Shown piece by piece: positions 38,366 through 63,499 of a stretch of DNA of 64,000 nucleotides (position 1 is the first letter of the stretch; each line of letters begins with the position of its first letter). The position numbers and the translations under genes are program-made. The stretch covers positions 6,386,001-6,450,000 of the forward strand of contig CM120647.1 of the NCBI GenBank assembly GCA_051362555.1, given 5' to 3'. The DNA comes from Lingula anatina. Taxonomy: Eukaryota; Animalia; Brachiopoda. Under the pieces are notes generated by a model that saw only the letters and a program-made list of their open reading frames with translations, had not been told where the DNA came from and made no database searches.

Positions 38366-40720
38366 TTTTTCTTTTTTTTTTTTAATTTGTAAAAAGTCAG
38401 GAAATCTGAAATATTGTGTTTCAATAAATATCAAAGTGACAGAAATTTTCAAATGCTGAACGGTCCCAGAATTTTGCTTAATTTAAGACTATTACAACCA
38501 GTGACCTTAAAACTATCATAAACATTTTATCTTTCATTGGTACAAGTACAATACTCCCTGATGATTTTAAAGATTGATATTGTTCAAATTGTATTCCTTC
38601 AGACTTTCAAGTGCCCAGAAGAAGGTTGTGAGTATGAAACGACAGCAAGCAACAGTCTAAAACTCCACGCCACCAAGCATAAGAAGGACAAGCCGTTCAA
38701 CTGCCCTTACTGTGGTCGCTGCGTGAAAACGGAGAAGTAAGTAGGAGAAGTTGAGATGGGTTTAAATGTATACAGTGATCTTTAGGCCTTTATTTGAGAA
38801 AACTTGAACTTGAAAAAGGGTCTGTTGGATGTAATTTTTTTGAACAGTTTTGGATAGAACATACCTTGGTCATAAGAGCAAATTGCAAGAATTTTCAGAA
38901 AATTCCTTTTTCACAGTGGATATTTTGTGAAAAGTAATATGCTTCCAAAATGCTATTTCTCAAACCTTCAATATTAGTCTTTTTTTCCTTTTAAGTGATA
39001 CCACAATGCAGGATGAATCGGAACATGACCTCAGTAATTATGAAAATTATTAATATTTCCAATTATTTTCAGAACCCTACAGAAGCACATCAACAAGCGC
39101 CACCTGAACATAAGGCCTTACTTGTGTCAGGTGTGTGGAGCATCTTACGGAGAGGAACACGAGCTGAAAACTCACGAGGCGCGTCACCTCACGGATAAAC
39201 CTTACATATGTGAACACTGTTCATATTCCACCGTCAGCAAGGCAGATTTGGCGAGTAAGTGATGGATAGGATAAGTACTCAATAAATAAATATATGCCTC
39301 AAAGCAATGCTTTGATTTAGTAGTGCTTTAAGATATTGATGTTAAAGTTTTTGAAAAATTAGTTGGTTTTATTTTGGAAATAATATTTTTGGGGTTTGGA
39401 AATTTGAGTTATTGCAATTAAACCTTCTCGAGGGCCAAGTTCTTTTCTTAACATTTATTTTTTATTTTTGTAATTATAGAACTGATTGGCTGCATTTGTC
39501 TCTTCTTTTATCATATATCTGATGGGGTGAATTTCCTTACATCTGGTTTATGTTCTTTTATTATCAAAAATCTAATTGAGAGTATTTGTTTACTTGTAGG
39601 CCATGTTTCTTTCTAATCATAAATCTTATTGGGTAACTTTGTTTACTTCAAGGTCATGTTATTTTCTAATCATAAATCTTATTGGGTGCATTTGTTTACT
39701 TCTAGGCTATGTTATTTTCTAATCATAAATCTTATTGGGTGCATTTGTTTACTCCTAGGTCACGTTCTAGCCAGACACAACCAGAGACTGGACAGCAAGA
39801 TCAAAGTCTACCAGTGTCACATCTGCGGCTACACCACGACCCGGAAAAAACACCACGAGCGCCACATCAAGGGGCACCTCAACATCCGCGACATGGTCTG
39901 CAACATCTGCGGGAAGACGTTTGCTCACGACCGCACGCTGGCCAAGCACATACGCTGGGTTCATACAGAGAAGAAGGTGAAATGTCCCCACTGCGATCAC
40001 GTCACGGCGGATAATTATCACCTGAAGGAGCACATCCGCGTGATGCACACGCACAGAGATTTGAAGCCCTTTAAATGCGGGTACTGTGATTTTAGGTGTA
40101 AAATATCGGGAAACGTTCGCAAACATTGCCTGCATAAACACAAAGGAGTGGAGGTGAAGTATTTGAAGGTGGCGCGGACGGATGTCGTCAAGGAGGTTCC
40201 GAAGCGCCCTCTTTTGTCCGACGTCTCCATGCGCACGGCGGATGTGTTTAGTTCTGCCCTGGAGATGTTGGCGACCCAGACCGTGCAAGCAGTGTCGTCT
40301 GAATTGAGTCATTTGTCCAATCAGGTCGTTTCAGGACAGCAACAGATCGCCAGCGTTTCCGACCAACCTCATATCGAGTCTTGCTCGCCCGTGCCCATGT
40401 ACGCCGGCAACCAAATCCTCTCAGTGCAGCACGTGACGTTGGGACAACACGTACAGCAACAACATCAAGAACCGCAACACCAACAGCATCAGCAACCCTC
40501 TTCCATAGCGACCAGCCAAGTGATGACCAGTCACATGACGGGCTCGGGGCAGTTGCCAGTCTCGGCAATACGCACAGCGCTGATGCAGCCCGTGACGAAC
40601 CAGATGCCGCCGCCTCACCCCCATCAGCACCCGAACCTCTTGCCCCCTCATGGTCACCTGGCTGGACCCATTGACATGTCCACCGGTCAGATTCCCCACT
40701 GGACCATGGGGCAGTTTTGA
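32185..40720 (+). CDS. BTB/POZ + AT-hook + about 18 C2H2 zinc-finger protein (ZBTB-like), paralog 2
   Basis: Exons 32185-32413, 33189-33377, 35145-36173, 36790-36980, 37880-38086, 38603-38736, 39073-39254 and 39759-40720 splice in frame. Features: BTB (LCDVTL..FPAHKVVL), AT-hook SRGRPKK, an acidic linker, a C2H2 array (KPFNCPYC, KPYICEHC, KPFKCGYC) and a Q/H/P-rich tail. AATAAA at 41440-41445. Confidence 0.92.
32434..32661. mobile_element. Diverged MITE family A copy
   Basis: TTA-flanked; shares tagatctatc and tttagc.tgaaccc..agggattaggtcgatc with family A. Confidence 0.6.
33423..34325. mobile_element. Foldback-type non-autonomous DNA transposon with long TIRs built from short subrepeats
   Basis: The left arm (catgaaaatctgactcccc..atgaaaatgtgactcccc..ttattttatttgagtatataacttttata..ttggcacttttt) mirrors the right arm (aaaagtgccaa..taaaagttatatactcaaataaaataa..ggggagtcagattttcatg). 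Confidence 0.8.
34752..34974 (-). mobile_element. MITE family A copy (reverse)
   Basis: Reverse complement of 15000-15216 (ctgacagtaatctagtgagactcccc.c.gggatagatcgatcta). Confidence 0.8.
37481..37716 (-). mobile_element. Short DINE-1/HINE-like rolling-circle element
   Basis: On the minus strand it begins attacctccgccaaggaggttat (hairpin/subTIR), contains a (gtct) microsatellite and an internal subTIR ccttggcggaggt, and ends CTAG. It is inserted in an (aat)n tract. Confidence 0.75.
38236..38383. repeat. Compound microsatellite (CT)n(AT)n(T)n
   Basis: Directly visible; source of three spurious low-complexity ORFs. Confidence 0.95.
39560..39766 (+). repeat. 53-bp tandem repeat, about 4 copies, spanning the acceptor of the last BTB-ZF2 exon
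   Basis: Unit ttttctaatcataaatcttattgggtgcatttgtttact..(t/a)ag-g.(c/t)atgtt; the last copy is the real acceptor (ctcctag|gtcacgtt). Confidence 0.9.
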
Positions 40721-43099
40721 GAGGTGGTCAGCCTAAAATTTTGGCTCTACGTCGTTCGTGTGTTTGTTGAAAGACGGCGATTGAAATGTTTTGTCGCTGA
40801 TATTGTTTTGTTGAAGGCAAGCAAATTTGATGTGTGGAAACATGCATACACACGTGCGCACGTTCAACACATGTTCACGTACGTGCATTCATACATACAA
40901 TCTACCTCTAACTTATTTGCTTGCACGCACATGCACACACACACACACGTACGCACACGTGCACACATTCACACAAAGCTTTCGGTTATCGTGGTAAATG
41001 ATCAAGAATAATGCAGTGGTAATTTTAGACAATGGAACATTAAGTGGGCAATTCTTTTATAGGAAGGTTTAAATCTCGATCATGATTCAACAGTGGAAAT
41101 TTTATAGTAGATTGCTTTATTTATAGAACTTTTTTTCCTTTATCTTTAAAAGTCTGTTGAAAACAAACTTTAACAGTGAAAGAAAATAGCACGAAGATTT
41201 TATAAGTTATTTATCTATATTTTATACCGTATGTGCTCTTACAAAATAATGGACCTATTTATTGTTTGGTATGGGAATATAGATATAGTAATCAGATGGT
41301 TCAGTTTGTAAAATAATATTGTTTTGTTTTAGAACAATTATACTTGATGACATCATATCGTGCTGTATATGTGAATACGCCAATTGTTTTTGCATTAAAA
41401 TGCAATTGTTGCTTGTTTGTGTAGATATAAAATATTTAGAATAAAACCATTTGAAGTTGGAAATGTCACGAGTTGTTTGTGTTTATTCATTTATTTGAAT
41501 TCACGTGCAATAAAAAAATAAAATGCACGGGGATGTGGGGGCCGCACTACAGCAATTTCTGAACGACGCAATACATTGCTTCAGAAGAGAGCTATCTGTC
41601 TGCAGACAGTAGATTAGTTAGTCAAGAGGGGGCAAACGTTTGCCGAATTGTTTCGTTTGCTTGTATTTAAATATGATTAAAATATCTGTGCTTCGGAGAA
41701 AGAAAGAAATGATCAAATTGTTGAAATTAAATGCAGCAGAAACCATAAACATTTCTCCTTATGGTCGAACAATTCGTACCCCAGCTCAAGGTCGTCGATT
41801 TCACCATGTTGTACTGCTTCGTGAGATCAGAAGCAGGGACATGTTTTCACGTTTCTCCAAGATTCCCCTTTTCTCTTAACACCACAAAGTAACACCTTTC
41901 ACTTTCTTGGCATCTAGAATGAGGTAATACTCTCCAGTATTTCGCAAAAATAGCGAAGGGCAAATTAGTCACCACTCACGTATGAAAACACGTACGTATT
42001 GACGCAAATACGTGGCCACCCACGATTTCGTTTCCAGAAACACTGTTCGTAAACCGACTCGAGTTTTGTACGAAAATTGTGTCCGTAGAGAAGTTTGTAT
42101 TTTGTTCATATGTATATATGAGCGTTTGAGTTCCGAGGCTCATCTGCGCTTGAAAATAATCAAATTATATACCATTCCCAGTTCTCTGTATGTAGGACTA
42201 CGGACTACAGGAAGAACTGATGAGGGCAGAAGCACGGTAATTTCTTAAGAATAATGCGCCTCTCTTTTGTTATATTTTGCTTTTTTTACGATTCTCAATT
42301 TCAATTCTCAATATCCTTTCTGACTTATTGTTTGATGCAAAACCATCTAATTTGTCAAAAATTCTGTACGAGTATTTTAAGTATTACAAACATAAGGTTT
42401 TTTTTTTTGTGAGGGGGATTATTTACCTTGTGCGAATTTATTTCGCAAATGCCGTATATACTTACTATGTGCCTAAAACGTGGGTATTTTGAAGTGATGT
42501 AATAGGTTACTTCGACTAAATTGAGATCGTATAGCAAGTGAAAGCGTGGAGCCGTATATGGAGTGACATGAGGGATTTACAGGGCGTAGCAGGGGCCGAT
42601 TTCACGAAATAACGATACCCGAATGTTGGCCCAAGCTCAAACAGCAAAAATTTTGTCTACCTCTGATCAAGCTAAATCTTCTGACATAAAGATAAGTCTT
42701 ACTCGTTGTGTAACAGGTGCAATATTTATTTTACGTAATCCTGTTACGTTACAGGCCTCGAATCAACCCTCGAGTGATCTGGAACCATTACAATGAATTT
42801 ATCGGGGGGGCTTTGTGTTATTTTTCTTTTCTTGCCAGAACATGTATTTTCAGTGACAGACGTATGCAACAAACTACTGATATCCCGCACATGCATATAT
42901 TTCCAAATGTTCAAAACTTTCAAGGTATATTGGGTATTTTGGTGACTTTTTTCTTCAAACGTTAGTAGATGTTTGATAAAATAAAAGTTATAAGAAAACA
43001 TTACATGTTCTTCCGTGATGTCGCTTAATAATAGTATTTGTTGTATTTTTGTGAAATATATCTATTTGCCCGAAACAAGGATTTTCAAAATGTTCCGTA

Positions 43100-43890
43100 T
43101 GCGCATGCGCATTTGTATTGTTACCAATTTCAGATAAATGTTACACTGCGTACGTGATCTTTGACACGCCCTTCTCAGATTGGTTGAGCCCAGGGGGGTT
43201 CTGCTCAATACATGAGGCACATATCAAACCAGTTTTTTTTTCTTAGATTACTAGCTCTATTTTTCGTGGTATTGACTGAAGACAGAGGAGGCGGGACTTT
43301 TAAAGAATCACTTTATTCGAAAATGGATATTGTTCTGGATGTGCTTCTATGACCTTAATATTAAAATGCTCTAACTTAATTCGTTATTAAGTAAAGTCTA
43401 AAATGTGGACCATGCACTAATGCAATTCGCCGAACTCAGGGAACTTTTTCAAAGCGTTTTAAAATTTTGCGAAAAAAAAGAAACATTTTTTCAGGATTTT
43501 GCTGCCTCGTTGTGCTCGTTTTCTTAACTTACTTCTCCATTGATAGTGCCCCCCCCCCCTTCCCCCACTACCATATTAGAGTAGACCTTTGCTAATGTAT
43601 GAAAATGTGAAAATCATTTTCTGGGAGAGCCAAATCGCCGCCATTTTCCGTTATTTGTTATCTCTTTCTGGGCGATATAACTGCATTCTTTTGGAAAATT
43701 TGAGGACTGAAAACATCAAAAAAGCGAAAGAAAGAAAAATAATTCTAAAGTATTATGCATCGACATCATCAGAGGCAACTTTGACCAATAGCAACCACCT
43801 ATCAGATCGAAGAACGACGTCGGCTCTCTACAAAGAGGAAAAAAGTTACAAGAGCGGTTGCAATATATTTCGTTTGGATATAAAATATCT
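43100..43890 (+). promoter_or_regulatory. Cluster of eukaryotic promoter motifs upstream of the Cj0069-like ORF
   Basis: TGCGCATGCGCA (NRF1 consensus) 43100-43111, ATTGG 43179-43183, GAGGCGGG 43288-43295, CGCCGCCATTTT (YY1-like) 43636-43647, CCAAT 43785-43789, TATAAAA 43879-43885. Motif matches only. Confidence 0.4.
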
Positions 43891-44194
43891 TGAGTTCAAA
43901 GTGAAAGATTCGTTCTGGTATCACCGAGAAGACAAAAGCCAAAGCTTTGCTGGACATACTAAAAACGGGGACAAATATCTAGAGAGAATTCAACATCAAA
44001 TGGACTGATATCGGCAACGTAACATATTCCTCTATATTTTAAAAAATACCAAAATCGGAGAGCAAACGTAACGGGTCTCAGTTTCTGCGTATTTCTATCA
44101 GTGAAAGATAATCAAGGTAGAGCTATTTCTTTTTCTTTCTTTCAAATTAAAAAAAAAAAAAAACAAGAAGCTACGCCAAATTTCATCCATAGCT

Positions 44195-45247
44195 ATGGTC
44201 ATTAAAAAGGTCGTGATCCTCGAGTGCAAATCCTCGCCGGACAAACACGTCGAGAGTGATCGAAAATATCGCCGGGACACACCATGGCTTAGAGATGCTT
44301 TCATTCGAAAGGGCATCCCCTCGGAAATCATCTACATCACCGACGCCACCACCGTGGAAAGCCTCTCAAAGGACTACCCGGAGACGCACTTTCTTGGGCG
44401 CGTTAACCCCGGCGACTTCGAGGACCTCAAGCTTCACAACTACCTACGGCTTCTAGCAGACCTTGCACGCGAGAAACTCCTAGTTGGACCCTTTCCCGAC
44501 CATATGGGTTCCTTGGGATCTAAGATCGCTTTATACTACCTCCAGAATACCGAATTAGGAGTCCCGGGGGTGCGGTACCATGCCCTTGAAGACGACAACG
44601 AGATTGATAGCATTTTACCTCTGAACGGAACCAACCGCGTGTTGAAGACCCTGCTAGGAAGCACGGGTTCTGGGATCTGGAAACTGGAGAACATCGACGC
44701 GAACACCGTTCGAATCACGGACGCTCACGCTCTGAAAACCGAAGACAAACCCCGCAAGGATGTCGTACGAGATTTCCGCGAGTCATTCGGGAAGGAAGCC
44801 ATCAGTATGCCTTTTTTACCACTCATAGCGAGCGGGGAGTACCGTTTCTTGTTGAGCAAGGACAGAGTAATGGAAGTGATCGTAAAGAAACCGGTAGACG
44901 AGACAGCTTTTTGTGCCACCCTCCGCTCCGGGGCCATCTACGAGACGAAAGGGAGAGAGGCCTACACGGCCGTGGCAAACACTTTGGAAGGCTGGGCGCG
45001 GAAAATCCGGGGCATTATGCAGATGCCGGAGCTCCCGTACTGGTGGTCTATAGACTGCATCCCGGATGATACAACCGAGGCCCCCGAGGGCCGGATCCCC
45101 GTGGACGGCAAACCGGATCAGCGGTTCACTTTCTCTGAGTGCAACTGCTCCTGCCTCGGCCTCGTTACCGATACCTCTTCACCGGAAGTGACCAAAAAGA
45201 AGGGCGACGAGTATGCTGATTTTATTGTGGAACAGATTTTAAAATAA
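44195..45247 (+). CDS. Intronless Cj0069/DUF6815-family ATP-grasp-like protein of bacterial type; horizontal-transfer candidate
   Basis: 350-aa uninterrupted ORF, clearly richer in GC and CpG than its flanks. The collinear motifs YRRDT, GRVNPG, PDHMGSLGSKIAL, RVLK..GSTGSGIW, MPFLPLIASGEYR, VKKP..AFCATLRSGA.Y, LPYWWSID and ECNCSCLG match, as recalled from memory, Campylobacter jejuni Cj0069 (YRKDT, RINPG, HPDAM.GYGAKDAL, RVLKQNRGSTGEGIW, MTFLPRIKEGEIR, HKKP..AFSATLFSGAKY, LPLIWTAD, EINCSCVG). Confidence 0.88.
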   Translation: MVIKKVVILECKSSPDKHVESDRKYRRDTPWLRDAFIRKGIPSEIIYITDATTVESLSKDYPETHFLGRVNPGDFEDLKLHNYLRLLADLAREKLLVGPFPDHMGSLGSKIALYYLQNTELGVPGVRYHALEDDNEIDSILPLNGTNRVLKTLLGSTGSGIWKLENIDANTVRITDAHALKTEDKPRKDVVRDFRESFGKEAISMPFLPLIASGEYRFLLSKDRVMEVIVKKPVDETAFCATLRSGAIYETKGREAYTAVANTLEGWARKIRGIMQMPELPYWWSIDCIPDDTTEAPEGRIPVDGKPDQRFTFSECNCSCLGLVTDTSSPEVTKKKGDEYADFIVEQILK

Positions 45248-46846
45248 ATTTGTTTCGTAACTTTAAAAATAATGAAATAATTTAGATGATTTTAGAGTGG
45301 ACATTGTTTTTATTGTTTATTTGAAAGTTTTTTCATTCAATTAATTCATTTATTTTACATTATCATTATCTGGAAGTGGTTGTATAACTCTCCCCCCCTT
45401 TTTTTGCTTGTTTTTTTTTTTTTTTTTTTTTTTTTTTTCATTTTCTTGTTAGCGTAATGAGCAAATACTTTCATTACTCACATTGACCTATGTTATAATC
45501 GACTGTGTGTGTTTACTCGAATTATTATCACCAAAATAAGACATATCTAATGACTGGTATTTAAAAAGATTTAGATTGAGATTTAAGTTGATACTACCGT
45601 CCCTCCGGTGTCGCCATGAGTCATGACCAATAAAACATGTTCTTCCCTTTACGCCATTTTGTTGTTTAATAAACTTCCATGTTTCAAATACCTGAGCATA
45701 TAGATGAACGGTCAATTTTGAGAGAGAATTTAATGGCTGAAAACACAAATTTCTTCATTACTACCTGCCTTAAAACAAGCAAACCAAAAAAAAAAAAAAA
45801 TCATTTTACTCGAAAGGGTCTAACAACTCTGATTTCTGAACATTTGCCAACGTAACATTGCTCACTATGTTAAACTGTTCAAGTGCAAACAAATGGGAAT
45901 AATAACAATTGCTATTTCCCTTTTTTCTACTTATTTGTGGAATAATACTCAGAAATTTTGTCACGAGTTCCTTAAATAGATACCCGGTATATGTTAGCGA
46001 GTCTTTGATGCAAGTACAAAAAAAATACCAATCCAAATGATGTAGCTAGGCAGCATGTAGACTAATCGCCTACTTTTTCATTTTTTTTTTTTGCCAAATT
46101 CTCCAAGCAGCTCCATTAATTAAACGTTAAATATGTATTTTAAACAGTCAGTTTGGATTATTAAAAACTTATATCCTGTTTATTAAAAAATAAAAAAAGA
46201 ATGCTTTACTGCTTTTTATGCACTCAGCTTGAATTGTTTCTTATCGAGCAGAGATTTTTTGTTTATTTTCTCTTTACTGAAAGCAATCCGGAATGAAGAC
46301 TCAAGACCCTGAACACAATTCCAGACAAGTGTTCGTTTTCACCCGGTCCCAGTTGACAATCTTGATACCCTAGGATAAATGTTATATTTTTTTCTCAGAT
46401 ATAATTTTAAAGACATTTCTATTATTTTTGCAAGGTCAACTCTAAGCTCCTCAAACGGCGCCTGTCTCTTTTTTTCTCTTTCTCTCTCTGACCTATTTTT
46501 TCTATCTCTACCATTTACTACTTACTGCCTTGCCTTTTGGTGCTACATCCGCATATTTCAAAGAATGCGACATCCATTATGCATACTATAATACGACGGT
46601 TATCTTTTCTCATACTTTTACTTCAGAAAAAGAAAATTTCAGATTTCGCTAGACGTTTACTGTTTCTGCTTTGCATCATGTAAAACATACCGTACGCCTT
46701 TTCGCCGAGATCAAAGCTCTCAATTTATCAGAAAGATCACTTATATGTTTTTGAATCTGATTTTTCTCATATTAGCTCAATCATTAAGCGAAAAAGGCTG
46801 CTAACACGCTTCACGTCTTCTCTGTCTTCTCTGATAACTATGGCCG

Positions 46847-47022
46847 TTGTGACAGGAATGGAAGTCCTAGAAAAAGAGGTCCGTGGTCCTACATGATTAG
46901 TGCAGGGTAGGTTTTGTTGGAGTAATATGCTTAGTATATGGATGAATGTCACCTGTACCGAAAAGTTATTACAGCGTCTTTGCCTGTACAAAGCAATGGG
47001 GGACGGCCTACCTTTCTGTCAT
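46847..47022. mobile_element. Small MITE family D copy (second copy at 54271-54418)
   Basis: Shares aca.gaatggaagtcc..atgattagt.cagg.tagg..ttggagta.t..gctt.gtatatgga.gaa.gtcacctgtac with 54271-54418. Confidence 0.65.
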
Positions 47023-47540
47023 ACAGTAAACACACAGTAATAACTTAGCTATAGGATGCTTTAACATTATTAATCTTATTATTGTCACTTTTATCATTAG
47101 TACTACTCGTCTCGTATTATTATTTTTTCTATCACTATTTTTTATTATTTAAAGATCTATCATTTCTTTTATTACTTTCACTATGGTAATCCTAACTACA
47201 TGTAATACCAGAAGTACTACTATTAAGACAACCATTATTATCAATTTTTTACTTAGTTACTATTACTTTCATTACCCTTATCATTACTGGTAATTTTATT
47301 AATTACATACGCACCATTTATTACTTACACACAGGCCCGCCTTGAGCCAAAGGTGCAAGCTAATTAATCTTGATCGCCGCGTTCATTTTTGATACATATT
47401 TGGGAAGCGTTGAAGTTGCTGCTTTGCGTTGATATCTGTGCACCTAGCATATTTGCAAAGAGCAGCTCTTTTTTTTTTCAGTAGAGAACGTGCTGCTGCA
47501 GAACAGCATTATATGCCGATTATATATCATTTTGCAACAG

Positions 47541-47753
47541 GGGCGCATTCACAAAACAGTTGTTCCGTCGACTAACAGATCCTCGGATCAAATATGATCA
47601 ACCCACTAGAAAACTTGCCGCATAACCCCCCCCCCCCCCCGGGTACCTATTCAATGTCTGTTAGGGGATTATGCAGCAAGCTTTCAAGTGGATCTCCATA
47701 TTTGATCCCCGGATCTGTTAGTTTGCAGATCAACTTTTATTGTGAATGCGGCC
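47541..47753. mobile_element. Palindromic MITE family C copy
   Basis: gcattcacaa..actaacagatcc.cggatcaaatatg ... catatttgatcc.cggatctgttagt..ttgtgaatgc. Confidence 0.7.
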
Positions 47754-48189
47754 ATAAAGTTTGCGGCAGAAATTGGATAGCGCTACTCCTTCTTTTATTA
47801 GGATGCAATATATAATGTTACGCAACACGTTTGGCACGTCGATTGCCTAATACCAAATTTTTTCGAGGCTAAATAAGAGGAATCAGCGCTGCAGGATCCC
47901 AGACTATCTGGAGTTTTTACCTACCTGCATTAGGATAAAGATAGAAGCACTCGTTCTCATGTTTTGCAACACAAAATAAATAAATAAATAAATAAACAGC
48001 CATTGCCAAAGATGCTGAGCCTATACAATGGATGATACATGTACCACATTAAGTGTCCTGCACGACCATGCTGTACACACATTATCCGAAACTAAAGAAA
48101 CAGAACAAACTCCAAACTCACTTTTGAGCATTTTTTCCCTTTTTTGTTATCTTTTGTCAAAAAGAAGTATCAAGACATAAGTGACTTCA

Positions 48190-48512
48190 TTTCGGAAACT
48201 GCAGAGGGCTGCTGATATCAGAGGTATTGCCAAGTAAACTCTGAAACGCAGGGTGTTACGAGTAACGGCAGAAGCGTGCTGACAATAGGGGTAAGTCCAA
48301 AGTTAACTCTGAAACGCAGGGTGTTACTGGAAACGAAGCACGTGCCAGAACGAGAGGTTAATCCAAAGAAAACTCTGAAATATGACACGTGTTACTGGAA
48401 ACAAGACACGCACTAGCACCTGAGGTTAGTCCAAACTTTGAAACACCGGTGTAACTTGAAACAACAGAGGCGTTCTAGTACGTGAGGTTAGTCCCTCACA
48501 AACTCAGGGTGT
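48190..48512. repeat. Degenerate tandem repeat, about 60-67 bp unit
   Basis: Recurring aactctgaaacgcagggtgttac...gaggtta.tcc. Confidence 0.7.
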
Positions 48513-48688
48513 TATATTGTTATATGCAGACTTGAGTTTAAATTTGGAATCAAAACTCTAGAGTTAACAACATGCCATACTTATATACTTATTTAACTTG
48601 CTCAATTTTATTCAATTCAAAGCAAGCGAGTAAAATGCAAATTTCCGTTGCATACGTGTGTCTTTGTGTGTGTGTGTGTGTGTGTATG

Positions 48689-48856
48689 CAGGCCCGTAGC
48701 CAGGGGGGGTTCGGGGGGTTCGAAAGAACCGCCCCTTTTGCTGAGAAAAGGTCCACTCTGGGTAAAATTTGATCTAGGTACATGACGTTTTTATGGGAAA
48801 AGGTCCACTTTTTCAGAAAAAGAACCCCCCTTTTGAAACTGCTGGCTACGGGCCTG
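48689..48856. mobile_element. MITE with 15-bp TIR and 5-bp TSD (gtatg), inserted in a (TG)n tract
   Basis: gtatg|caggcccgtagccag ... ctggctacgggcctg|gtatg. Confidence 0.85.
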
Positions 48857-50055
48857 GTATGTGTGTGTGTGTGTGTGTTGGGGGTGGGAGAGAAGCTTGG
48901 GCAGTCCATTCTTGAAAAAACAGCTACTGAGAAGAGGTGTAAAGGGAAAATATGTCTTAAATTTGGGCATCGGTTGACTTAAGTTTTGGCCTGCTACATA
49001 ATAACTTACGTTTTAGATATAAATTATTTGAGAAAAGGATGAGCTCCCTGCGCTTAGGATTAAGGTGGCTGGAAAAAAAACACCCTTAGTCCCTATTTAT
49101 TTATTCATTAATTTTATTTATTCCTTTTTAAGCAGGAAAAATCATCATGAATAATCAACTACCAGAGAACCTACATGTACTTTATTCTGGACATTTTTTT
49201 TTTATTTTATCCGAATACCAATACAAATACCACTACCCCCCTCCCCCCTCCCCAATAAACAAAGACTCACCTACTTGATTATAATTGGCCGTTTTTTGCG
49301 TCACTTGATGTTGCACACACTGAATATCTAAGGCACGTATGATACCACTTATTGCATAATAATCTAAGTTAGTCTCCACATTTTACAGACAACATTTTTC
49401 AGACCTGTCATTTAGAGACATATCTCCTGATTCCCCGATTCATAATAAATACTCCCTGATTTATCAGACTAGAACGCGTGGCCATAAAAAAATGCACCTA
49501 GTGACTATACTATGTGCCGTCACTTAATCGCCATGTTCCATTAATTGATTAATTGCAGTAAACAATGAGGAGGAAATGCTGAAGACAAAACAATGTCGGG
49601 TCGTTGTGTGACTCCCTTAACACTTTCTATGTTGCTGTCAAGGAGAAAGGAACCGAGATAGCGCTCATTTAAACCGCAGCTGCTGCTTGTACAGGTAGAC
49701 TTCAACATTTATCATTTAAATGCCCCTTCCTTCCAGCACACCCAACTTGAGGAATGTCATGGTACAGCACACTGTATATCAAATCTTGGTTCAAGTTATG
49801 AAAGGTTTTTAAACCTTAAAAGGCCTCAAGGATATTACAAATACGTCTAAAACTCGATTTTTTGTTTTTTATATGTTAGAAATAATCAATTTTGTATCTA
49901 ATAATGAATTCAGTTATATTTTTGCAACACGGACTAAAAATATACATTTGGAGTTTTTCTACCTGTCCTGACTGGTACGCGTGGCAGCCTTTAGGCTCCG
50001 CCTCCGTTGTCAAGCACCGTTACTATGGGGGGCGGGGCAAGATGGGTTGTCTTAA

Positions 50056-50270
50056 GGCTCTGTTCTCATAACTTTTAGATCGATCTATCACCGCGGGGAG
50101 TCTCACTAGATTACTGTCAGATAATCCGCCTTAAGTGTCCGTCCCCGCCTACTACAAGCTATAAGGGGTAATTTACTTTCGTGTCCGCCCGGCTGACAGC
50201 TATTTAGCGTGAACCCCCAGGAAGTTAGGTCGATCCAATGTAGGTCGATCTAATCTATGAGAATGGGGTG
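50056..50270 (+). mobile_element. MITE family A copy
   Basis: Highly similar to 15000-15216. Confidence 0.8.
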
Positions 50271-51834
50271 TTATAGACTGAAAATTACGTGTGCACAGGC
50301 AGCTCATAAGTCTTACGTCAGCTAAGCATTACACATTTATATACACTGTCATGGGAAGAAAGAAAGTTGAGAGAAAACGGATGAGCGAGGAAAGCAAGAT
50401 GATTTTGAAAGAGAGTGCTTCTGGTGGATGAAGGGGAGTCTTGGCATATGCAGGGAGCGTATGCGTACAACATTTGGGTTGTCAGAAAAAAATCGTTACA
50501 TTCACAATAAAGATCAATCGTAACAGCAAGCAGATTTATAAATTGTAATATTATAAATTTTAATATTGCCACCTGTTTTCAGAACAGTATAATTTCTAGT
50601 CAACTGTACCTTGAATTTTTGATTGACCTTTTATTTTTGAAGTTATTAATACTGAAAGTGGAGGGTCCATAATTAAAAATTTAGTAAAATTCACGTTTTA
50701 TCGAAATAAAATCAAAAGTAAAAATAATAAGAGAAAATCCAGAAGCAGTTTACTGGTTTTTGTGCTAACCTTTAGATAGCTCTTTCAATCGTATTTATAG
50801 GGATTTTTGTTTAAGATAAACCCTTGATTACAAAATATGACAATTTTAGCCCAAAACGAGAATATTACGTCACTCGTGTTACACTGCGACTACAAGCTTT
50901 GGAAATTTTTTTGCTTGGTAGACCACATCCTTTAGTTAATAGGAAATTAAATTAGCTGCATTAGTTTTGGATTTTTTCATTAATATCCTTAAGCCTTAAT
51001 TAAATTTAAAATTGCTGTCAATTATAACCATCCACCAATGAGCGATGGCGTCTACAGGGATATATATCCCCGATCTTGTTTGAACCCTAGTCAGATGTTT
51101 AAGGCCCAAGCTTTGACAGTCACCCGTGGAAAACACACAGCAACGGAACAAAGGTAACACATCACCTTGTTATACTGTGGTGTAGGAAAGATGTAACTTT
51201 GACTTAACTGGTGATTTTTTTACACGATATGCGTGCTGCCATCTGCGGGTCGAATATAAACTTCAGAGACTTAAGAATCAAGAATCACGATGAATATTTT
51301 AACACAAAAGTCGGTGGAAGCCGAAACTAGTTGAGAGAAAATTGTCAATGTTTGGATCAAGTTACGAGAAATTGTTGTTTCTTTTTAAAGATTATAACTG
51401 TCATCATTTAAATATACACAGTTTTACCTTTTGGACAGAGATTTTTGAGAACTACAATGAGTGATATAATATAATATATAAAAATAAGAAAACCAATTTT
51501 GTTGGAAATTTGAGCTATTCTTTTTCCAAAACGAGAAAAGCATACACCATCCAAAAACAATTGAGATAATTGAAACCCTAAGTTAAAAAAAAAATGAATA
51601 TCTCTCTTAATGGAGATAGAAAAGAGTGAACTTTAATGATCACTGTAACAATGAGAAATTCAGAGCGCAAAGAAGAGTTTATGGATCAAGATTTTGTGAC
51701 CGGTTTTGAATTTTGCATTGGCGATTAAAGGAAAAATTACTTACATTTCTAGGAAATGGATTTTTTTGCTATATAAAGGTGTAATGCACAATGTAATGCT
51801 TGTATTTAAGTTAAAGCAGTTTAAGTTGGTAGAT

Positions 51835-52106
51835 CAGAGGCGGATCCAAGATTATTTGAAGGGGGGGGGGGGCGCTGATACGAAGCCGACCCTAGCCAAC
51901 CCTCCTTGGCGTGGAGGTTCGGGGACCGTTGAAGGCCCCCGAAAAATTTTGGCGTATTAGAGGGCGAATGATGCCATTTTGTACGGTTTAGAACTATGAT
52001 TCAGCTAGTCAAAATTCTAATTTCAAGTGGGGGACATCGGTGTGATTTTTTTTCAGAAATCGAAAGTAAGTCTGAACCCCCTGACACCCCCTTGAATCCG
52101 CCACTG
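51835..52106. mobile_element. MITE with CAG..CTG termini; an internal fragment recurs in reverse at about 57200-57263
   Basis: cagaggcggatccaag ... cttgaatccgccactg. The stretch tagagggcgaa..gtacggtttagaactatgattcagctagtcaaaattcta is reverse-complemented near 57200-57263. Confidence 0.7.
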
Positions 52107-52385
52107 AAGATAATAGGCAATTGCAATGAAAAGCTGACCAAAGTAACTTTCATTGAAAACGATCCATGAAAGGAAAGGGGGTTTAAGGGGGTGTGGAAAA
52201 CGACACATGAACTAGATCAGAGCTGTAAGTTCTTTACTTTTCAGTCAAGAAGCTGTTTGGAGATAAATAGTGAAGAAGTCATACCATGGCGATCGAAATC
52301 GTTTTACTGTGAGTCTGTTGATTTTTTTTTCTGTAAAGCGAATGATTTTTATTCCGCAGAATGTCGATTTTTTACACATGCCGAA

Positions 52386-52417
<32 letters not shown>

Positions 52418-53091
52418 GCGCGCGCGCGCACGCGCATGCACACACACACAAACACACACACACACACACACATGCTAGAAGACTATTACATCGTAGCAGT
52501 ACTGAACTACATAAAATCAATGATAAACAGTCACTTGTCGATATAAATTGTCCACTTTTCGCTGAGATAATACTGGCGCACCTTGAACATGCGGGCATAA
52601 TTTTTGTGACAGCATCACAAACTACGATGAAAATTATTTGTAATTCCGTGTCACCGTTCGCTTAAAGGCATAATGGACTAATAAGAGTTAAAGCAGAGCG
52701 AACAACTAACACCTGGAGCCTTAAATTGCCCAATTTTCACAGAAATCATCCAGACATCATTATTGTGAATTATTACAAATAATTATTGTAAACAGATCCA
52801 TTAGAAGTATTTACACTTGATCGACATTTTTCAAGGCCACTCTTTTTTATACCAAACAAAAGCATAAACTTTGTAATTAATAAAGTGCATTTACCCGTCA
52901 TGTGGAGTGTTAGGCAATGTTATCACACAAATTCACAAAATAGCTTGAATAGGGACAAAAAGTGTTAATATCCCAAACAGCTCGAGAGAAGCAAGCCATC
53001 TTTGATTTATTTTATTCACTATTTCTCAACAGAATGTGATAACGTCAATAGAAATTAATATATATATATATTCGCATATTTTTCTGTTTAG

Positions 53092-53666: not shown

Positions 53667-53699
<33 letters not shown>

Positions 53700-57588: not shown

Positions 57589-57653
<65 letters not shown>

Positions 57654-58866: not shown

Positions 58867-61800
58867 TTAGCTTTCGTCCATCTTTTCCTCTTTCCTTCCT
58901 TCATCCTTGCCCTCGCCCCCCTGCTCAGCGTTTTGCATTGCACGAACAAACGCTTCAACATCTGAAATACATAAACAAAATATCATACAGTGGATATATC
59001 AGGGTTATACTGAACATTATTCATGAAATCCATAGATATTACAGCTTCTTGGCCCTAAAATATAAAATTTGGATGCACAAGTTTTTAAGATCTTTAAATT
59101 TCTAAATTGCCAAGAAATCAGTTATAATCTAAACAATCTTAGAAGCAGGAAATTGTACTACTAAATATTCAGTCAAATTTGAAAGATTTTTCTTACATTT
59201 ATGGATCATTTAATTTAAACATGCAAACCAGAATTATTGAAGTCACTATTTGAATTTCCATAAAAACTTTACCTGCATATGGAAAATAAATAAATAAATA
59301 AATAAGGCAATTAAAACTCACCTCCCTGTGCAGCTGCGTTGGCCACCTCTTCTCCCAGGCCAAACTGCCCCATGAGTGGCCCCAGCTGACCAGAGGCCAG
59401 TGCAGCACTGAATGTACTCAGAGCCTGGAAATAGAACAAAGAGAAAGAATTATTATTATTAGTACTAGAAGAAGATCTGAGAGGGTTAGCATACTACTGG
59501 ACATGTACCACCAGCAGCACTAAAAGTACTTAGAGCCTGGAAACAGAAAACACAGGGAGAATTAGTACATCAGAGAGGGTAAGGGTTCTCCTAGGATGAA
59601 CCACCAGCTGGGTTAGGTGTACACATTAAAGGGATGATAACAAAGATATTTCTGGAGCAAAGGGGTGATAAAAATGATATTTCCAGAGCAAAAGGATAAT
59701 TACAAATATATTTCCAGAAAAACTCAACAGCCTGTTGATAATTTGTAACTGAGGAATAGGAGATGCACAGCCACCTTCTGGGCATGTACCACCAGCGGGG
59801 TCAGTAACATAAAGTGGGCAGAATAATAACATGTAAATATTTCAAGAGACACTTCATTTGGGCAATTCACAATTATAGGTTTTATTTGACAATTAAAAAA
59901 AAATTAAATTAATAAAATAAATTAATTTTAAAAAATAAAATAAATTATTGAATATGGCATCATACAAACCTGTTGAAACTGAGGTGCAGAAACCGTGGCT
60001 CGCAGCTCTTCCTCACTCTTCGGCAGAGAGCCCCCCTGTGGCAAGAAGGGGATGAGCCTCTGCTGTACCTCCTTGTTCGCCAGGATGGGAATGAGGCTGT
60101 CGGGATTCAGGGCCTGAACCAAGTCTACGTCTGGAACAAGAGGGATATGATTCAAAACATACTGAACAAAATTTAGAGAAGAATTTCAAAAATATATTTT
60201 AGGAGCAATTTTATTAATGGACAACAGGAACTTCCACAACACAATAATGAATATAATATAACTCATGAATGAGTGTGTGCCCTGGGAAAAAAAAAAAAAA
60301 AACATTATCTTTTGTTCAGCCCTTTTCCTTTTTAGTATGCACCATAACAGAAAAATCAGGGTAGCAATGAATTACATTTCACATCTATTTTCATCCACTT
60401 ATCTATAATTGTTTTTGCCAATTTATCATCAAGTATTTCAATTTTCTAATTTGCCTGCAACTGGCCAACTAGAAATAAATTCAAACCATTTCTAGAAGAC
60501 AATGATTTATATCAGATATAACAAATTGCCCTTTCATGAGAGGGCCTTGATCACATTTTTACTATCAATGCACAAGACAACAAAAAACCTATTTAAACAA
60601 ACTATCCAACTAGAAGGCTAAGAGATATTTTATCCTTGAGTGAGCTAAGAGAATAAGATGATGCTGGGGTAGCGCTAGCAATTTTTTTTGGTTAGCCAAA
60701 TTACCACTTTTTTTGTCAATTTGTTATCCAAATGGCTTTAATTTGACTAAAATTAGTCAAATCAAGCCCTTTTTGTTTAGCCAGTTTAAGTCAGTTTTAG
60801 CATTTGGCTAAATTGGCGAGTGTTAGGGCTACCCCAGTGATGGTAAAATGTATACATACTTGTTTGACTGGAACCTGTGGCTCCTGATGCTGCCGGCACT
60901 GAAAATTATAAACAAACAGACTTCAAATACACATTAAGATGATATCATACCTGATTTTATTCAAGAGCAAAAACAACTTTCAAACAATATAATCCAGAAA
61001 TTAAAAATTTTAAACCTGTGAAAATCCCACACTGACTCACCTGTCATATTAGACAATATATTCTGCAAGTCACTGAGTTGTATGGGAGTTCCGCCGGCAC
61101 CAGGTGTCGGTGCCTGAGGACCAGCAGGGGGCGCTGTCTGTGGCACAGGTTGCTGCGCTGTGATCAGCGAAGGCTGGGAAGGCAAGGCAGCCGCGGTGGC
61201 AGGCCGCGGAGCAGGGGTCACTGTACTGTCAGCACTGGTGGCTCTGGGACCAGGAGAAGATTGGACTCGCAGTGGCCTGCAATATCAATCAATCAATTAA
61301 TTAGTCAATAAATAAATCAACACTAAATGTTAATGGAGTAAGAAATTCAGTATGAATCAACTGACGATGAATACGGCAACATTTTTATTAATCTGTGCAC
61401 AAAATACGAATAATTCACAAAACAATACAAATATCTGAAAACAATCTGCTTCTTCCACAAAATAAGTTTAGTTTGAATATAATGATTTCATTTCTTTATC
61501 CCTTCTAGTGTGTGCATCTAATTGCAGAGAGGAATAGACTTTGTATAGGAATCAAATACTTCAGAATAAACTGTTTAAATTCTTACGTGGATGAGTCAGT
61601 GGACTGAGCACTGGCAGGTCTGGCTCCCATCATAGATGTCAGTCCTCCCATACCACCCATCCCCATACCACCTGAAGAGTAGAGAACATAGTCCTTATTA
61701 ACTAGATAAATACACTCTCTCTCTCTCTCTGGCACGAACACAAATTCTCTGTCTCTCTCATTTATTCACTCTTTGTCAGACACACCCTCTTTCTCAGGCA

Positions 61801-63499
61801 AAACTCTATTCAAAAAGTTTATCTTGCTCAATGCAAATCCTTGCCAGAATGTCAGCAAAGGTCATTTCACTGGAAGTTATGACAAATGTAGTAAAACAGA
61901 AAATTTTGAATGGTACTCTACTTTAAAATTTCTTACTCTACTTAATTACATAAAAAACTAGTACTTACTTCATTTAAATTTAATAATAATCATTATAATA
62001 AATAAATAAATTTTATTCAAATTACCCAGTAGCTGCATCAACTGTTGCTGGCTCATCCCCCCCAGTATACTTTGTAGATCGCTGTCTCCCAGACCAGCCA
62101 GATCTGGGGGTAGACCAGACATCCCGCCACCCCCTCTGCTAGACCCTGGGGTTGGGGGGTTGTTCAAGTACTCATTCACCTTCTTGCAGTGGTCTTCATC
62201 CTTGTCCGTTTTGGGCTCCTGGAAAATGGCAGTTATTTAAAAAGATGTAAACGTCCAGTTGAAAAAGGTTTAATTTTATAAATTGATTATTTTACATAAA
62301 AAAGCTCAGTCTGTCAATTTGTGTCTCTTCTTTATGGATCTGTTCAATCCTGAAAAGATCTCACCTTCCTCAGGAACACACAATTTACGAGGTATGATCA
62401 AAAAGCTCTTGGCCTAATGTACTTTGATTCAATACATTGACAGACAATCCAAAGCAGTGGAAAATTTTATCTTTTTGAAGGTCATTGGTTGAGAGCATAC
62501 AATTTTCGTGACCTAAGAGCAACATCAGGTATGTTGAATGGTGTTCTAGTAACTTGAGCAAACATCTTAATGTTGTCTTTGTTACTTTACCACTTTTTTT
62601 ATCAAATGGATATGACCTGCATTTTTTCTATTCTTGGTATAAACTTCTAGTTAGGGCAATATTTTCATGGTAGGGTTTTGACTGTCGGACCGTATCATCT
62701 AGAAGAATTATCCTATTTCATATCTCTGAATTTTATTTGGATAATAGTACGGAGCATGCTTCCTTAAATAGGTCTTATCTTCCTTTTTTTTTTTAAATCT
62801 GAAATTCAAAAATCCAAATATGAACCATCTGTTATATTACCTGCATCCAGAAAATAAACTTTCTGGTAGAAGACTTGAACTTGAGGACATAAACTCTCCC
62901 CGTAGTACACTGCGGCACTAGTTTGAACTCGCAGTCATCCGGGAAGATAATCAGGTCCTGGAGAAATAAATAGAAAGATACAAGAACTGCGTATACATAT
63001 TATGGAGTTTTTCATGCTTTATGCTTAAACAAGATGGATAAGATCTCTTTAGTTTAGCATACGAAAATTGGAGATTTGACAAGAACTTGAAGAAGGCAAA
63101 GTATTTTTTTAGATTTCTTAAAAAGCGGTTTTGTTCCGTACTGTTTTCAAAAGTAAAGTTATTTTATAAAAAAGAAGTACACATCAGGTATTTTACATAT
63201 ATTATTTCATCAATAATACACAGCAATTGTTGAGAATAAAATTTAGGCAAATGCGAAGAACGATCATTAACTAAATACTGTCAAAACTGCCTACTCACGT
63301 CTTCCACCGCACCGCTGGTCCTGTCTTTCCAACAGAAGTGCATCAAGGAGTCGTCCGACTGATAAATATACACCATCCCCTTCCTTTTATCGGGGTGACA
63401 CATCTTGCTCTTCAAATACATCTTACCGGCCCTAAATTCGACCAAATTTTTGCTTTGACTGCGGCCACCGGCCGTGCTTCCGAAAAGTGCTGCTGCCAT
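58867..63499 (-). CDS. ADRM1: Proteasomal ubiquitin receptor ADRM1/Rpn13, 9 coding exons
   Basis: Exons on the minus strand: 63299-63499 ([38 protein letters not shown] domain), 62841-62957 ([25 protein letters not shown]), 62026-62218 ([22 protein letters not shown]), 61587-61671, 61041-61276 ([14 protein letters not shown]), 60860-60898, 59970-60130 (PQFQQ), 59322-59424 ([18 protein letters not shown]) and 58867-58961. Confidence 0.97.
60664..60837. mobile_element. Small MITE with 5-bp TSD (tgatg) in an ADRM1 intron
   Basis: tgatg|ctggggtagc ... gctaccccag|tgatg. Confidence 0.7.

What the first reader, a model, noticed from the sequence alone, without database searches (positions are those of the whole stretch)
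44195..45247. Bacterial-type Cj0069/DUF6815 ATP-grasp-like gene, intact and intronless, between animal genes: candidate horizontally acquired ligase
Seen: a 350-aa ORF with no coding introns in a window where every other gene is multi-exon; it is GC/CpG-rich against AT-rich flanks that carry the window's own repeat families. Knowledge, recalled rather than searched: its motif order matches the Cj0069 family of Campylobacter and other bacteria, an uncharacterised family with an ATP-grasp-like fold. Residues typical of active ATP-grasp ligases appear retained: Lys in RVLK, the GSTG loop, Arg in GEYR, Asp in SID and the metal-binding E-x-N in ECN. Inference: the animal acquired and kept a bacterial amide/peptide-bond ligase of unknown substrate, which may point to an undescribed small-molecule or peptide-modification pathway.
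Basis: partly seen in the sequence, partly recalled or inferred. Interest (0 to 1): 0.9.

Follow-up and report, generated by a model that had tools for sequence, protein, structure and literature searches.

The report
Microbial-type peptide ligase in brachiopod, annelids
A lamp shell (Lingula) carries an intact gene with no coding introns from an uncharacterised, mostly microbial ATP-grasp enzyme family; its closest relatives are annelid worm genes, so it is likely an old acquisition rather than a recent bacterial one, and it is predicted to join amino acids into a small peptide that nobody has yet identified.

Summary
The ORF is real (350 aa, no coding introns) and lies in Lingula anatina DNA. 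It passes Pfam DUF6815 (66 bits, cut-off 28) and matches Cj0069 just under cut-off (128.5 vs 150). Its model has an ATP-grasp fold with all ATP/metal residues kept. It is not a Lingula-only bacterial import: its nearest relatives are annelid-type genes (45-48% to the named full-length annelid proteins; best labelled bacterium 29%), several with introns. They form one clade (100/100) on a long stem; silent sites are saturated; GC matches a neighbouring exon. The donor is unresolved: a bacterial one is neither shown nor rejected (AU p 0.37), and weak sisters are unlabelled. Profile alignment puts the family nearest bacterial glutathione synthetase GshB, with a changed substrate loop (ExNCSC for EINVTSPT), so it likely makes another small peptide. 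No reads could be examined; the protein was in none of the collections searched, so expression is unshown. Verdict: undescribed animal branch of an uncharacterised ligase family; directly testable; less startling than a recent transfer.

The parts
44195..45247 (+). Intact single-coding-exon gene, 350 aa, DUF6815/Cj0069-like ATP-grasp protein (P0001)
44270..44281 (+). N-domain R26-R27-D28-T29 motif; aligns with GshB K17/K18-D19-S20; predicted part of the carboxylate-substrate site
   Evidence: role inferred from GshB (recalled)
44399..44410 (+). R69-V-N-P72; aligns with GshB R86-K-D-P89; R69 invariant in the animal clade and type A bacteria, W in type B
44522..44524 (+). K110, first ATP-grasp lysine (GshB K125)
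44636..44674 (+). R148-V-L-K151 and G155-S-T-G158-x-G160 lid loop (GshB K160, G164-G167); Lingula has L154 where 23 of 23 annelid-type rows have R
44834..45160 (+). Pfam DUF6815 match (residues 214-322): E215, R217, K231, D287, E315, N317, C320 (GshB D208, R210, R225, D273, E281, N283, S286); Lingula has V230 where 23 of 23 annelid-type rows have H
44117..44192 (+). Possible 76-nt GT..AG intron in the 5' untranslated region, ending 2 nt before the ATG (untested)
   Evidence: sequence only
45243..45673 (+). AATAAA hexamers at 45243 (overlapping the stop), 45629 and 45668; possible polyadenylation signals (untested)
   Evidence: sequence only
39776..40720 (+). Upstream host neighbour: last coding exon of a C2H2 zinc-finger gene; composition control
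58870..63499 (-). Downstream host marker: seven ADRM1/Rpn13 exons, 94-100% identical to the Lingula anatina protein; fixes the host

Best explanation
This is an intact Lingula gene of an animal branch of the DUF6815/Cj0069 ATP-grasp family that it shares with annelids, likely taken up from a microbe long ago, and it is predicted to be a cytosolic ATP/Mg-dependent ligase that would join a small carboxylate (likely a glutamyl or dipeptide compound) to an amino acid or amine to make a small peptide other than glutathione. Shown: open frame, host context, family, fold of the model, residue conservation, monophyly with annelid-type genes. Inferred step 1: K110, K151, the G155-G158 loop and D287/E315/N317 bind ATP and two Mg ions as in GshB/RimK. 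Inferred step 2: R26/D28/R69 and R217 hold a carboxylate, which is phosphorylated to an acyl-phosphate. Inferred step 3: an amine held near K231 and the T242-L-x-S-G-A loop attacks it, releasing ADP and phosphate. Inferred step 4: the loop after E-x-N (C318-S-C320-L-G322 where GshB has V-T-S-P-T) sets a different substrate, and the conserved C320 may contact or react with it. Inferred history: one entry into an early lophotrochozoan (or annelid plus brachiopod) lineage, loss elsewhere, intron gain in annelids, faster change in Lingula.
For: Pfam DUF6815 E 5.6e-18, 66 bits over cut-off 28; Cj0069 E 3e-37 over nearly the whole model. Model pLDDT 85.8, pTM 0.83; all listed Foldseek PDB hits are ATP-grasp proteins: ArgX E 2.8e-11, DcsG, Ddl, RimK, GshB. 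Family profile vs GshB: probability 99.2, E 1.9e-18, score 100, 280 columns; vs RimK 98.4, score 75. Purifying selection by proxy: the ORF keeps the consensus residue at 77 of 92 columns invariant in 33 homologs, 39 of 69, 26 of 62 and 32 of 123 in ever more variable classes; second codon positions 67-70% identical to 10 of 10 annelid-type CDSs while four-fold sites match at 11-18 of 46-57. Animal clade 100/100, stem 2.53. Annelid-type genomic loci carry spliceosomal introns (L001, L013, L014). No signal or membrane segment in the first 110 residues. Stand-alone enzyme: no shared neighbour among 60 ORFs scanned (of 90) from 9 chromosomal bacterial loci. Independent of glutathione synthesis: 2 of 4 type A genomes have their own GshA and GshB, 2 of 4 show neither over cut-off, and the Corynebacterium glutamicum control has Cj0069 but rang for neither.
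Against: No activity, substrate or expression was tested. The protein is absent from the 5.8-billion collection that holds the Lingula ADRM1 protein, from the 50% representatives and from the Atlas, which fits an unannotated or weakly expressed gene. It scores under the Cj0069 cut-off that 4 of 4 annelid-type proteins pass and has lost R154 and H230. Foldseek ranks ArgX/LysX (protein carrier ligases) above GshB, the RimK profile was shallower than the GshB one (Neff 2.3 vs 3.6), and the sequence-profile hit to solved GshB is not significant (E 0.036). The clade is not nested among labelled bacteria when rooted on GshB. Lingula is further from annelids (46-48%) than its ADRM1 is (63-69%) although annelid-annelid values are alike (69-74% vs 72-73%), and its place in the clade changes between trees. 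Only 5 of 62 clade members carry an organism name.
Confidence: 0.5

Rival explanations
1. Same enzyme, different history: Lingula got its copy separately, either from the same unsampled microbial donor lineage as annelids or from an annelid through a spliced RNA.
For: Lingula lacks all intron positions seen in annelid-type genes, some of which recur in many fragments; end branch 0.78-1.06 against 0.1-0.4; grouped with P0002 at SH-aLRT 91 in one quick tree; the ORF alone lacks the TpG/CpA excess of 4 host genes (0.90/0.78 vs 1.25-1.43/1.20-1.45).
Against: The nesting collapsed in the careful tree and Lingula was sister to all 14 annelid-type rows in another (support 32); four-fold sites are at chance level; codon use differs from host genes no more than they differ from each other; no poly(A) tail or target-site repeat seen at the 3' end.
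Confidence: 0.25
2. No transfer into animals: the gene came down from unicellular eukaryote ancestors and was lost in most animal lines, as argued for GH13_1 amylases of Lingula and some annelids.
For: The GshB-rooted tree leaves the animal clade outside the group that holds labelled type A bacteria (96) and weakly beside unlabelled P0166/P0209 (84); several near rows have N-terminal hydrophobic segments that look eukaryotic (inference); PMC7003070 (discussion read) prefers loss for a similar patchy pattern.
Against: No non-bilaterian, deuterostome, ecdysozoan, mollusc or nemertean record among named hits though such proteomes are in the collection; an ancestral gene in an intron-rich genome would be expected to have introns; grouping with labelled bacteria is not rejected (AU p 0.37).
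Confidence: 0.15
3. It ligates onto a protein or peptide (RimK/LysX/ArgX/graspetide-like tagging) rather than making a free small molecule.
For: Top Foldseek hits are ArgX, LysX and RimK, and PsnB is listed; RimK profile probability 98.4; no pathway genes beside bacterial copies.
Against: N-domain motifs D28 and R69-x-N-P match GshB D19 and R86-x-D-P, and the FLPLI-x-GE-x-R strand matches GshB more closely than RimK; no conserved small substrate gene nearby.
Confidence: 0.2
4. The Lingula copy is silent or decaying, or has become a non-ligating ATP/thiol-binding protein, while the annelid copies are the working ones.
For: Not in any protein collection searched; long end branch; 45 substitutions at columns at least 90% conserved, among them R154L and H230V.
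Against: No stop or frameshift in 350 codons; conservation graded by site class; several replaced residues equal those of bacterial members (G73, I161, I286, C240 in or near family use); every ATP/metal residue kept.
Confidence: 0.1
5. Assembly artefact: DNA of another organism joined into the Lingula scaffold.
For: No reads could be examined; no shared dispersed repeat within 3.5 kb upstream or 1.6 kb downstream; absent from Lingula protein sets.
Against: No N in the window, AT-rich non-coding flanks with animal-type simple repeats on both sides, no bacterial neighbour ORFs; no near-identical source in any collection (best 52%).
Confidence: 0.04

Closest known systems
Cj0069 family (NCBIfam NF033816) / DUF6815 (Pfam PF20668), type A members such as the proteins of G112, G199, G203, G302
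   Same: Whole-length homology, the same DK..R-x-D-T, R-x-N-P, RVLK, GE-x-R, W-x-x-D and E-x-N-x-S-C-x-G motifs.
   Different: Only about 29% identical; separated by a stem of about 2-2.5 changes per site; under the NCBIfam cut-off; sits in an animal genome. The family itself has no known function in the papers found.
Annelid DUF6815 proteins (Helobdella robusta P0010 and P0015, Paralvinella palmiformis P0033 and P0056, Lamellibrachia satsuma P0035)
   Same: One clade with the ORF (100/100); 45-48% identity over the whole length; same active-site signature.
   Different: Annelid-type genes have introns and paralogs and pass the Cj0069 cut-off; they are database entries named only by domain, with no paper found.
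Bacterial glutathione synthetase GshB (E. coli b2947, PDB 1gsa; TIGR01380)
   Same: Best profile match; D19, R86, K125, K160, G164-G167, R210, D273, E281, N283 have identical counterparts.
   Different: 16% identity; EINVTSPT replaced by ECNCSCLG; R233/N235 and Q198 not kept; R225 is K; lacks the N-domain hairpin; occurs with or without GshA/GshB in bacteria.
RimK / LysX / ArgX ligases and their animal offshoots RIMKLA/RIMKLB; carnosine synthase CARNS1 (animal enzymes recalled, not fetched)
   Same: Same fold and predicted acyl-phosphate chemistry; RIMKL and CARNS1 are the precedent for animal ATP-grasp enzymes that make small peptides (recalled).
   Different: Lower profile score than GshB; no sequence-level membership; RIMKL and CARNS1 are widespread in animals (recalled), this clade is patchy.
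Patchy non-ribosomal peptide enzymes and GH13_1 amylases in lophotrochozoans (PMC2922099 passages; PMC7003070 abstract and discussion)
   Same: Stand-alone microbial-type enzymes in a few animal lines, with transfer and loss hard to tell apart.
   Different: Unrelated folds; those cases include cnidarians or sponges, none seen here.

Membership tests
Pfam DUF6815 (PF20668) | Score over the gathering threshold (28 bits) | tested here: met
   66.2 bits, E 5.6e-18, residues 214-322 on profile 2-105 of 105
NCBIfam Cj0069_fam (NF033816) | Score over the curated cut-off (150 bits) | tested here: not met
   128.5 bits, E 3e-37; 4 of 4 annelid-type proteins pass at 152.6-155.6. Filed as a divergent Cj0069-like protein, not a cut-off member.
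NCBIfam Cj0069_fam (NF033816) | Full-length match and type A motif set | tested here: met
   Residues 5-331 on profile 1-323 of 334; motifs
ATP-grasp superfamily | Three-domain ATP-grasp fold | tested here: met
   Model pLDDT 85.8; Foldseek E 2.8e-11 to ArgX, TM 0.59/0.72. The second aligner never ran.
ATP-grasp superfamily | Two ATP-binding lysines, glycine loop, D..E-x-N metal ligands | tested here: met
   K110, K151, G155-G158, D287, E315, N317 align with GshB K125, K160, G164-G167, D273, E281, N283
ATP-grasp superfamily | ATP-dependent carboxylate-amine ligase activity | not testable with these tools
   Needs an assay
Glutathione synthetase GshB (TIGR01380) | Score over the family cut-off | tested here: not met
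   Not among the 2 NCBIfam families listed at E<=1; Pfam GSH-S_ATP only E 0.16
Glutathione synthetase GshB (TIGR01380) | Substrate loop E-x-N-V-T-S-P-T and R233/N235 | tested here: not met
   Kept in 29-30 of 30 GshB rows, replaced here by E-C-N-C-S-C-L-G and C240/T242
RimK/LysX family (TIGR00768) | Score over the family cut-off | tested here: not met
   Not listed for the ORF; weak sub-cut-off scores for some relatives
Chromate-linked type B Cj0069 proteins | W-x-N-P at the R69 site, S at the C320 site, no R-x-D-T motif | tested here: not met
   9 of 13 labelled bacterial rows are type B; the ORF and 23 of 23 annelid-type rows are type A
Horizontally acquired gene | Nested with support inside a donor clade | tested here: inconclusive
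   Outside labelled type A bacteria in the GshB-rooted tree; forced grouping not rejected, p-AU 0.368; most near rows unlabelled
Horizontally acquired gene | Patchy presence among animals | tested here: met
Horizontally acquired gene | Physical linkage to host genes shown by reads | not testable with these tools
   Linked in the assembly only; no run data could be obtained
Horizontally acquired gene | Expressed as a host transcript | not testable with these tools
   No RNA data for Lingula; annelid-type relatives occur as uninterrupted short contigs that look like transcripts (inference)
Recent, Lingula-specific bacterial transfer | Bacterial best hits and alien composition | tested here: not met
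   Animal hits 45-48% vs bacterial 29%; GC and GC3 like the neighbouring exon

The most novel reading that the evidence does not exclude
Annelids and brachiopods share an undescribed non-ribosomal peptide pathway built on a glutathione-synthetase offshoot taken from a microbe hundreds of millions of years ago, with an active-site cysteine in place of the glutathione-specific loop; it makes an unknown small peptide (redox, metal, osmotic or defence role in sediment life), and the intronless Lingula copy may have crossed between animal phyla as a spliced RNA.
Probability: 0.25. Interest if true: 0.85.

Novelty: new variant of a known kind. Interest (0 to 1): 0.58.

Why it matters
Animals have few known ATP-grasp enzymes that make small peptides (glutathione synthetase, carnosine synthase, RIMKLA/B; recalled), and each defined a metabolite. 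This would be another, kept under selection in leeches, vent and seep tubeworms and a brachiopod, and it offers a soluble single-gene route to the first function for the whole Cj0069/DUF6815 family. It also shows a blind spot: a screen that subtracts the best eukaryote hit from the best bacterial hit, as in the tubeworm study (PMC8476170 supplement passage), would drop this gene because annelid copies are already in the databases (inference). If it proves vertical, it becomes a case of massive gene loss instead, which is less surprising.

Tried and rejected
Recent bacterial transfer into Lingula alone: rejected. GC/CpG as alien signal: rejected; codon-use tests did not discriminate. Glutathione synthetase or its replacement: rejected by motif and by co-occurrence with GshA/GshB in 2 of 4 genomes. 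Chromate-resistance role: chr genes lie beside the gene in 3 of 5 plasmid loci read, chrB 4.4 kb off in a fourth, none in the fifth, but all are type B proteins with a different substrate site, so the link was not carried over; the idea that ChrI is this family found no support (no Cupriavidus record among 26 plasmid matches; uninformative). Giant-virus carrier: the Atlas listed Nucleocytoviricota ATP-grasp clusters without DUF6815, but 4 of 4 scans of viral contigs confirmed no relative, phages gave no match and the viral fold search showed only generic ATP-grasp hits at 8-14% identity. Paralog in the window: none. Upstream 137-aa ORF 43595-44008: no convincing family. Single-sequence PDB search: nothing. 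A link to the amide-bonded Fridericia luciferin was considered from recall; the search gave no biosynthesis evidence. A third homolog search with a wider alignment gave no further organism names. Left open because no answer could be had: read coverage and expression, source organisms of the unnamed homologs, a second structural aligner, a genome-wide copy search. No complex prediction was run.
Full report
OBSERVATION. The window has an ATG-to-TAA frame at 44195-45247 (+) of 350 aa; 50 base shuffles of the window gave at most 216 aa. It aligns end to end with homologs, so there is no coding intron. A GT..AG stretch at 44117-44192 could be a 5' untranslated intron and AATAAA occurs at 45243, 45629 and 45668; neither was testable. 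The host is Lingula anatina: an exon at 63332-63505 is 100% identical to its ADRM1 protein and seven exons of that protein map at 94-100%. NMD3 and BTB/zinc-finger genes lie upstream. The window has no N. GC 0.53 and GC3 0.66 match the zinc-finger exon upstream (0.55, 0.70), and CpG o/e 1.08 matches the upstream flank (1.09), so composition is no sign of foreign origin. The one oddity is the lack of the TpG/CpA excess seen in 4 of 4 host genes. Dispersed repeats shared with the rest of the window begin at 46876; none was found from 40700 to 46875.

FAMILY AND FOLD. Pfam DUF6815: E 5.6e-18, 66.2 bits, cut-off 28. NCBIfam Cj0069: E 3e-37 over residues 5-331, 128.5 bits, cut-off 150, not reached; 4 of 4 annelid-type proteins tested pass at 152.6-155.6. 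The Atlas gave bacterial DUF6815 clusters at 0.97. A model from 34 sequences has pLDDT 85.8, pTM 0.83; Foldseek lists only ATP-grasp proteins, led by ArgX (E 2.8e-11), DcsG, Ddl, RimK, GshB and LysX at 9-16% identity. By sequence the ORF alone finds no solved relative; the wider profile finds E. coli GshB at E 0.036 and RimK at 0.12, both below significance. Profile-profile alignment of 96 family rows gives GshB (30 rows) probability 99.2, E 1.9e-18, score 100 and RimK (21 rows, shallower) 98.4, E 6.4e-14, score 75.

ACTIVE SITE. One search pairs D28/D19, R69/R86, K110/K125, K151/K160, G155-G158/G164-G167, E215/D208, R217/R210, K231/R225, T242/N235, D287/D273, E315/E281, N317/N283, C320/S286 and G322/T288 (ORF/GshB). 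The roles of these GshB residues (nucleotide, metal, gamma-glutamylcysteine and glycine binding) are recalled; my searches for them returned nothing usable (listings and passages). In PsnB a conserved arginine brings the carboxylate to ATP (10.1101/2021.03.09.434688, passages); its equivalence to R217 is my inference. One search shows K110, K151, R217, D287, E315 and N317 in 23 of 23 annelid-type rows, 13 of 13 labelled bacterial rows and 53-59 of 59 other rows. It also splits the labelled bacteria: 4 of 13 (type A) share R26, D28, R69 and C320 with the animal clade; 9 of 13 (type B) do not. GshB's V-T-S-P-T loop and R233/N235 (29-30 of 30 rows) are absent, so glutathione is an unlikely product. 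Lingula alone has L154 for R and V230 for H. The ORF keeps the consensus residue at 77 of 92 columns invariant in the 33 other rows of alignment A1, against 39 of 69, 26 of 62 and 32 of 123 in more variable classes, the pattern of purifying selection.

RELATIVES. The homolog search returned 62 proteins among 3154 candidates at 39-52% identity; 5 carry an organism name and all are annelids (Helobdella twice, Paralvinella twice, Lamellibrachia); the ORF's own product was not among them. A wider alignment added no name (63 hits among 7994 scored). The same collection holds molluscs, nemerteans, arthropods, Priapulus, Saccoglossus, Capitella and Arenicola, none of which appeared; this speaks only for annotated proteins that share exact words. 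The unfiltered profile search found 243 proteins at E<=0.001: one full-length animal-type representative (E 9e-183), fragments, then a gap to E 1e-35; the full-length distant ones shown were 20-30% identical to the ORF (output partly cut). The best labelled bacterial protein is 29% identical. A motif scan of 185,579 prokaryote species gave 28 pattern matches and 1 relative, L001: a 1.8-kb contig with simple repeats and a GT-AG intron (1076-1605) whose protein reads like the Lamellibrachia one, so probably host DNA in a symbiont bin. Of 14 metagenome loci (126 pattern matches), L013 and L014 are interrupted at other splice-like sites, and many database fragments end at recurring boundaries. Four-fold sites against 10 annelid-type CDSs match at 11-18 of 46-57: the split is old.

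TREES. Of 213 family sequences 129 passed a coverage filter; the first tree used 84 after thinning the animal clade to 24 and dropping 9 long or duplicated rows; later trees used hand-picked sets of 51, 35 and 42 rows. The animal clade is 100/100 with a stem of 2.53 and Lingula on an end branch of 1.06 in an unresolved base. Lingula joined P0002 at 91 in the quick version and was sister to all 14 annelid-type rows at support 32 in another set: unresolved. Rooted on GshB, the clade lies outside the 17-row group that holds the 4 labelled type A bacteria (96) and weakly beside unlabelled P0166/P0209 (84); forcing it with those bacteria is not rejected (p-AU 0.368). Several near rows carry N-terminal hydrophobic segments, which suggests microbial eukaryotes but labels nothing. 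So a microbial origin is likely from the patchy presence, and the donor is open. Lingula-annelid identity is 46-48% while annelid-annelid is 69-74%; for ADRM1 the figures are 63-69% and 72-73%: either faster change in Lingula or a separate entry.

BACTERIAL CONTEXT. 8 of 401 Pseudomonadota genomes pass the Cj0069 cut-off. Among 60 of 90 ORFs scanned from 9 loci no neighbour family recurs in a telling way: a stand-alone gene. On plasmids, type B genes sit in chrB-chrA(-SOD) clusters in 3 of 5 loci read, near chrB in a fourth, and not in the fifth; this is not carried to the animal enzyme. Of 4 type A genomes, 2 have GshA and GshB and 2 show neither over cut-off (incomplete genomes possible); C. 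glutamicum has Cj0069 and rang for neither.

MECHANISM. Most likely a soluble ATP/Mg-dependent carboxylate-amine ligase working through an acyl-phosphate, with a GshB-like site for a glutamyl or dipeptide carboxylate and a new Cys-Ser-Cys loop that sets another product (about 0.65 for an active small-molecule ligase; 0.5 together with one old entry). Rivals: separate or animal-to-animal entry (0.25), inheritance with loss (0.15), protein tagging (0.2), silent copy (0.1), artefact (0.04); the history and function rivals are not exclusive. Against activity in Lingula: the protein is missing from all collections searched, and no reads could be had.

LITERATURE. 'Cj0069' is in 6 papers (listing); the two read give it as a hypothetical protein in tables (PMC2764114, PMC5841378, passages). 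'DUF6815' is in none. Searches on transfer with annelid/ATP-grasp (3 papers), Lingula/Lophotrochozoa (14), brachiopod/bacterial origin (4) and chromate/ATP-grasp (1) showed, from titles and abstract starts, no account of this clade. PMC8476170 (passages and the 1 supplement file held) reports 4-6 unrelated candidates in tubeworms and has no 'Cj0069' or 'ATP-grasp' in that file; figures and other supplements were not seen. PMC7003070 (abstract, first part of discussion) and PMC2922099 (passages) are precedents for patchy enzymes. PMC11647595, PMC5818473, PMC1995225, PMC6978387 and PMC2845819 were seen as passages and added nothing decisive. The library lacks most subscription papers, and UniRef already labels the annelid proteins by domain. 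Three look-ups in this scan's notes found nothing on this family.

VERDICT. Real gene, right family, plausible ligase; an undescribed annelid-brachiopod branch rather than a fresh bacterial import. New variant of a known kind; interest 0.58.

Noticed in passing
L016:4580-6792, L018:2757-6035, L019:1708-5969, L020:72-5967: Type B Cj0069-family genes lie in or beside chromate-resistance clusters (chrB, chrA, superoxide dismutase) on plasmids of Variovorax, Agrobacterium and Sphingobium, and 4.4 kb from chrB in Pannonibacter; a possible uncharacterised ATP-grasp accessory gene of chromate resistance. One paper search found no account.
   Followed up: partly
L001:1-1814: An intron-containing animal-type gene on a short contig inside a bacterial genome record of the prokaryote collection; probably host contamination of that bin.
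   Followed up: partly
window 53620-58135 (+): A multi-exon gene of no identified family downstream; a resemblance to actinoporin-like proteins was recalled, but single exons gave no Pfam or PDB support.
   Followed up: partly
window 24334-25283 and 32185-33412 (+): Two BTB/zinc-finger genes with a nearly identical BTB exon: a recent tandem duplication.
   Followed up: no
window 25008-25190, 33173-33370 versus 39500-56000: BTB exons are almost free of CpG (o/e 0-0.1) while most of the 39.5-56 kb block has o/e about 0.6-1.4, which suggests methylated and unmethylated domains side by side.
   Followed up: no
window 20876-23179 (-) and 58870-63499 (-): NMD3 exons and the ADRM1/Rpn13 gene; usable as synteny anchors in other brachiozoans.
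   Followed up: partly
window 47541-47753, 54104-54226, 50055-50273, 53280-53464, 39466-39774, 4510-5775: Two hairpin (MITE-like) elements, a 220-nt dispersed repeat with copies at 14999 and 34794, and tandem repeats of 37 nt, 53 nt and a longer unit.
   Followed up: no
proteins P0185, P0192: W in place of conserved G throughout, as expected when TGA=Gly organisms are translated with TGA=Trp; inference.
   Followed up: no
proteins P0174, P0178, P0179, P0183, P0187, P0190, P0202, P0203, P0212; P0220, P0222: Unlabelled family members with N-terminal hydrophobic segments (possibly secretory-pathway forms) and others with the domain repeated in tandem.
   Followed up: no
window 43595-44008 (+): A 137-aa ORF just upstream with no convincing family match; probably chance.
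   Followed up: partly
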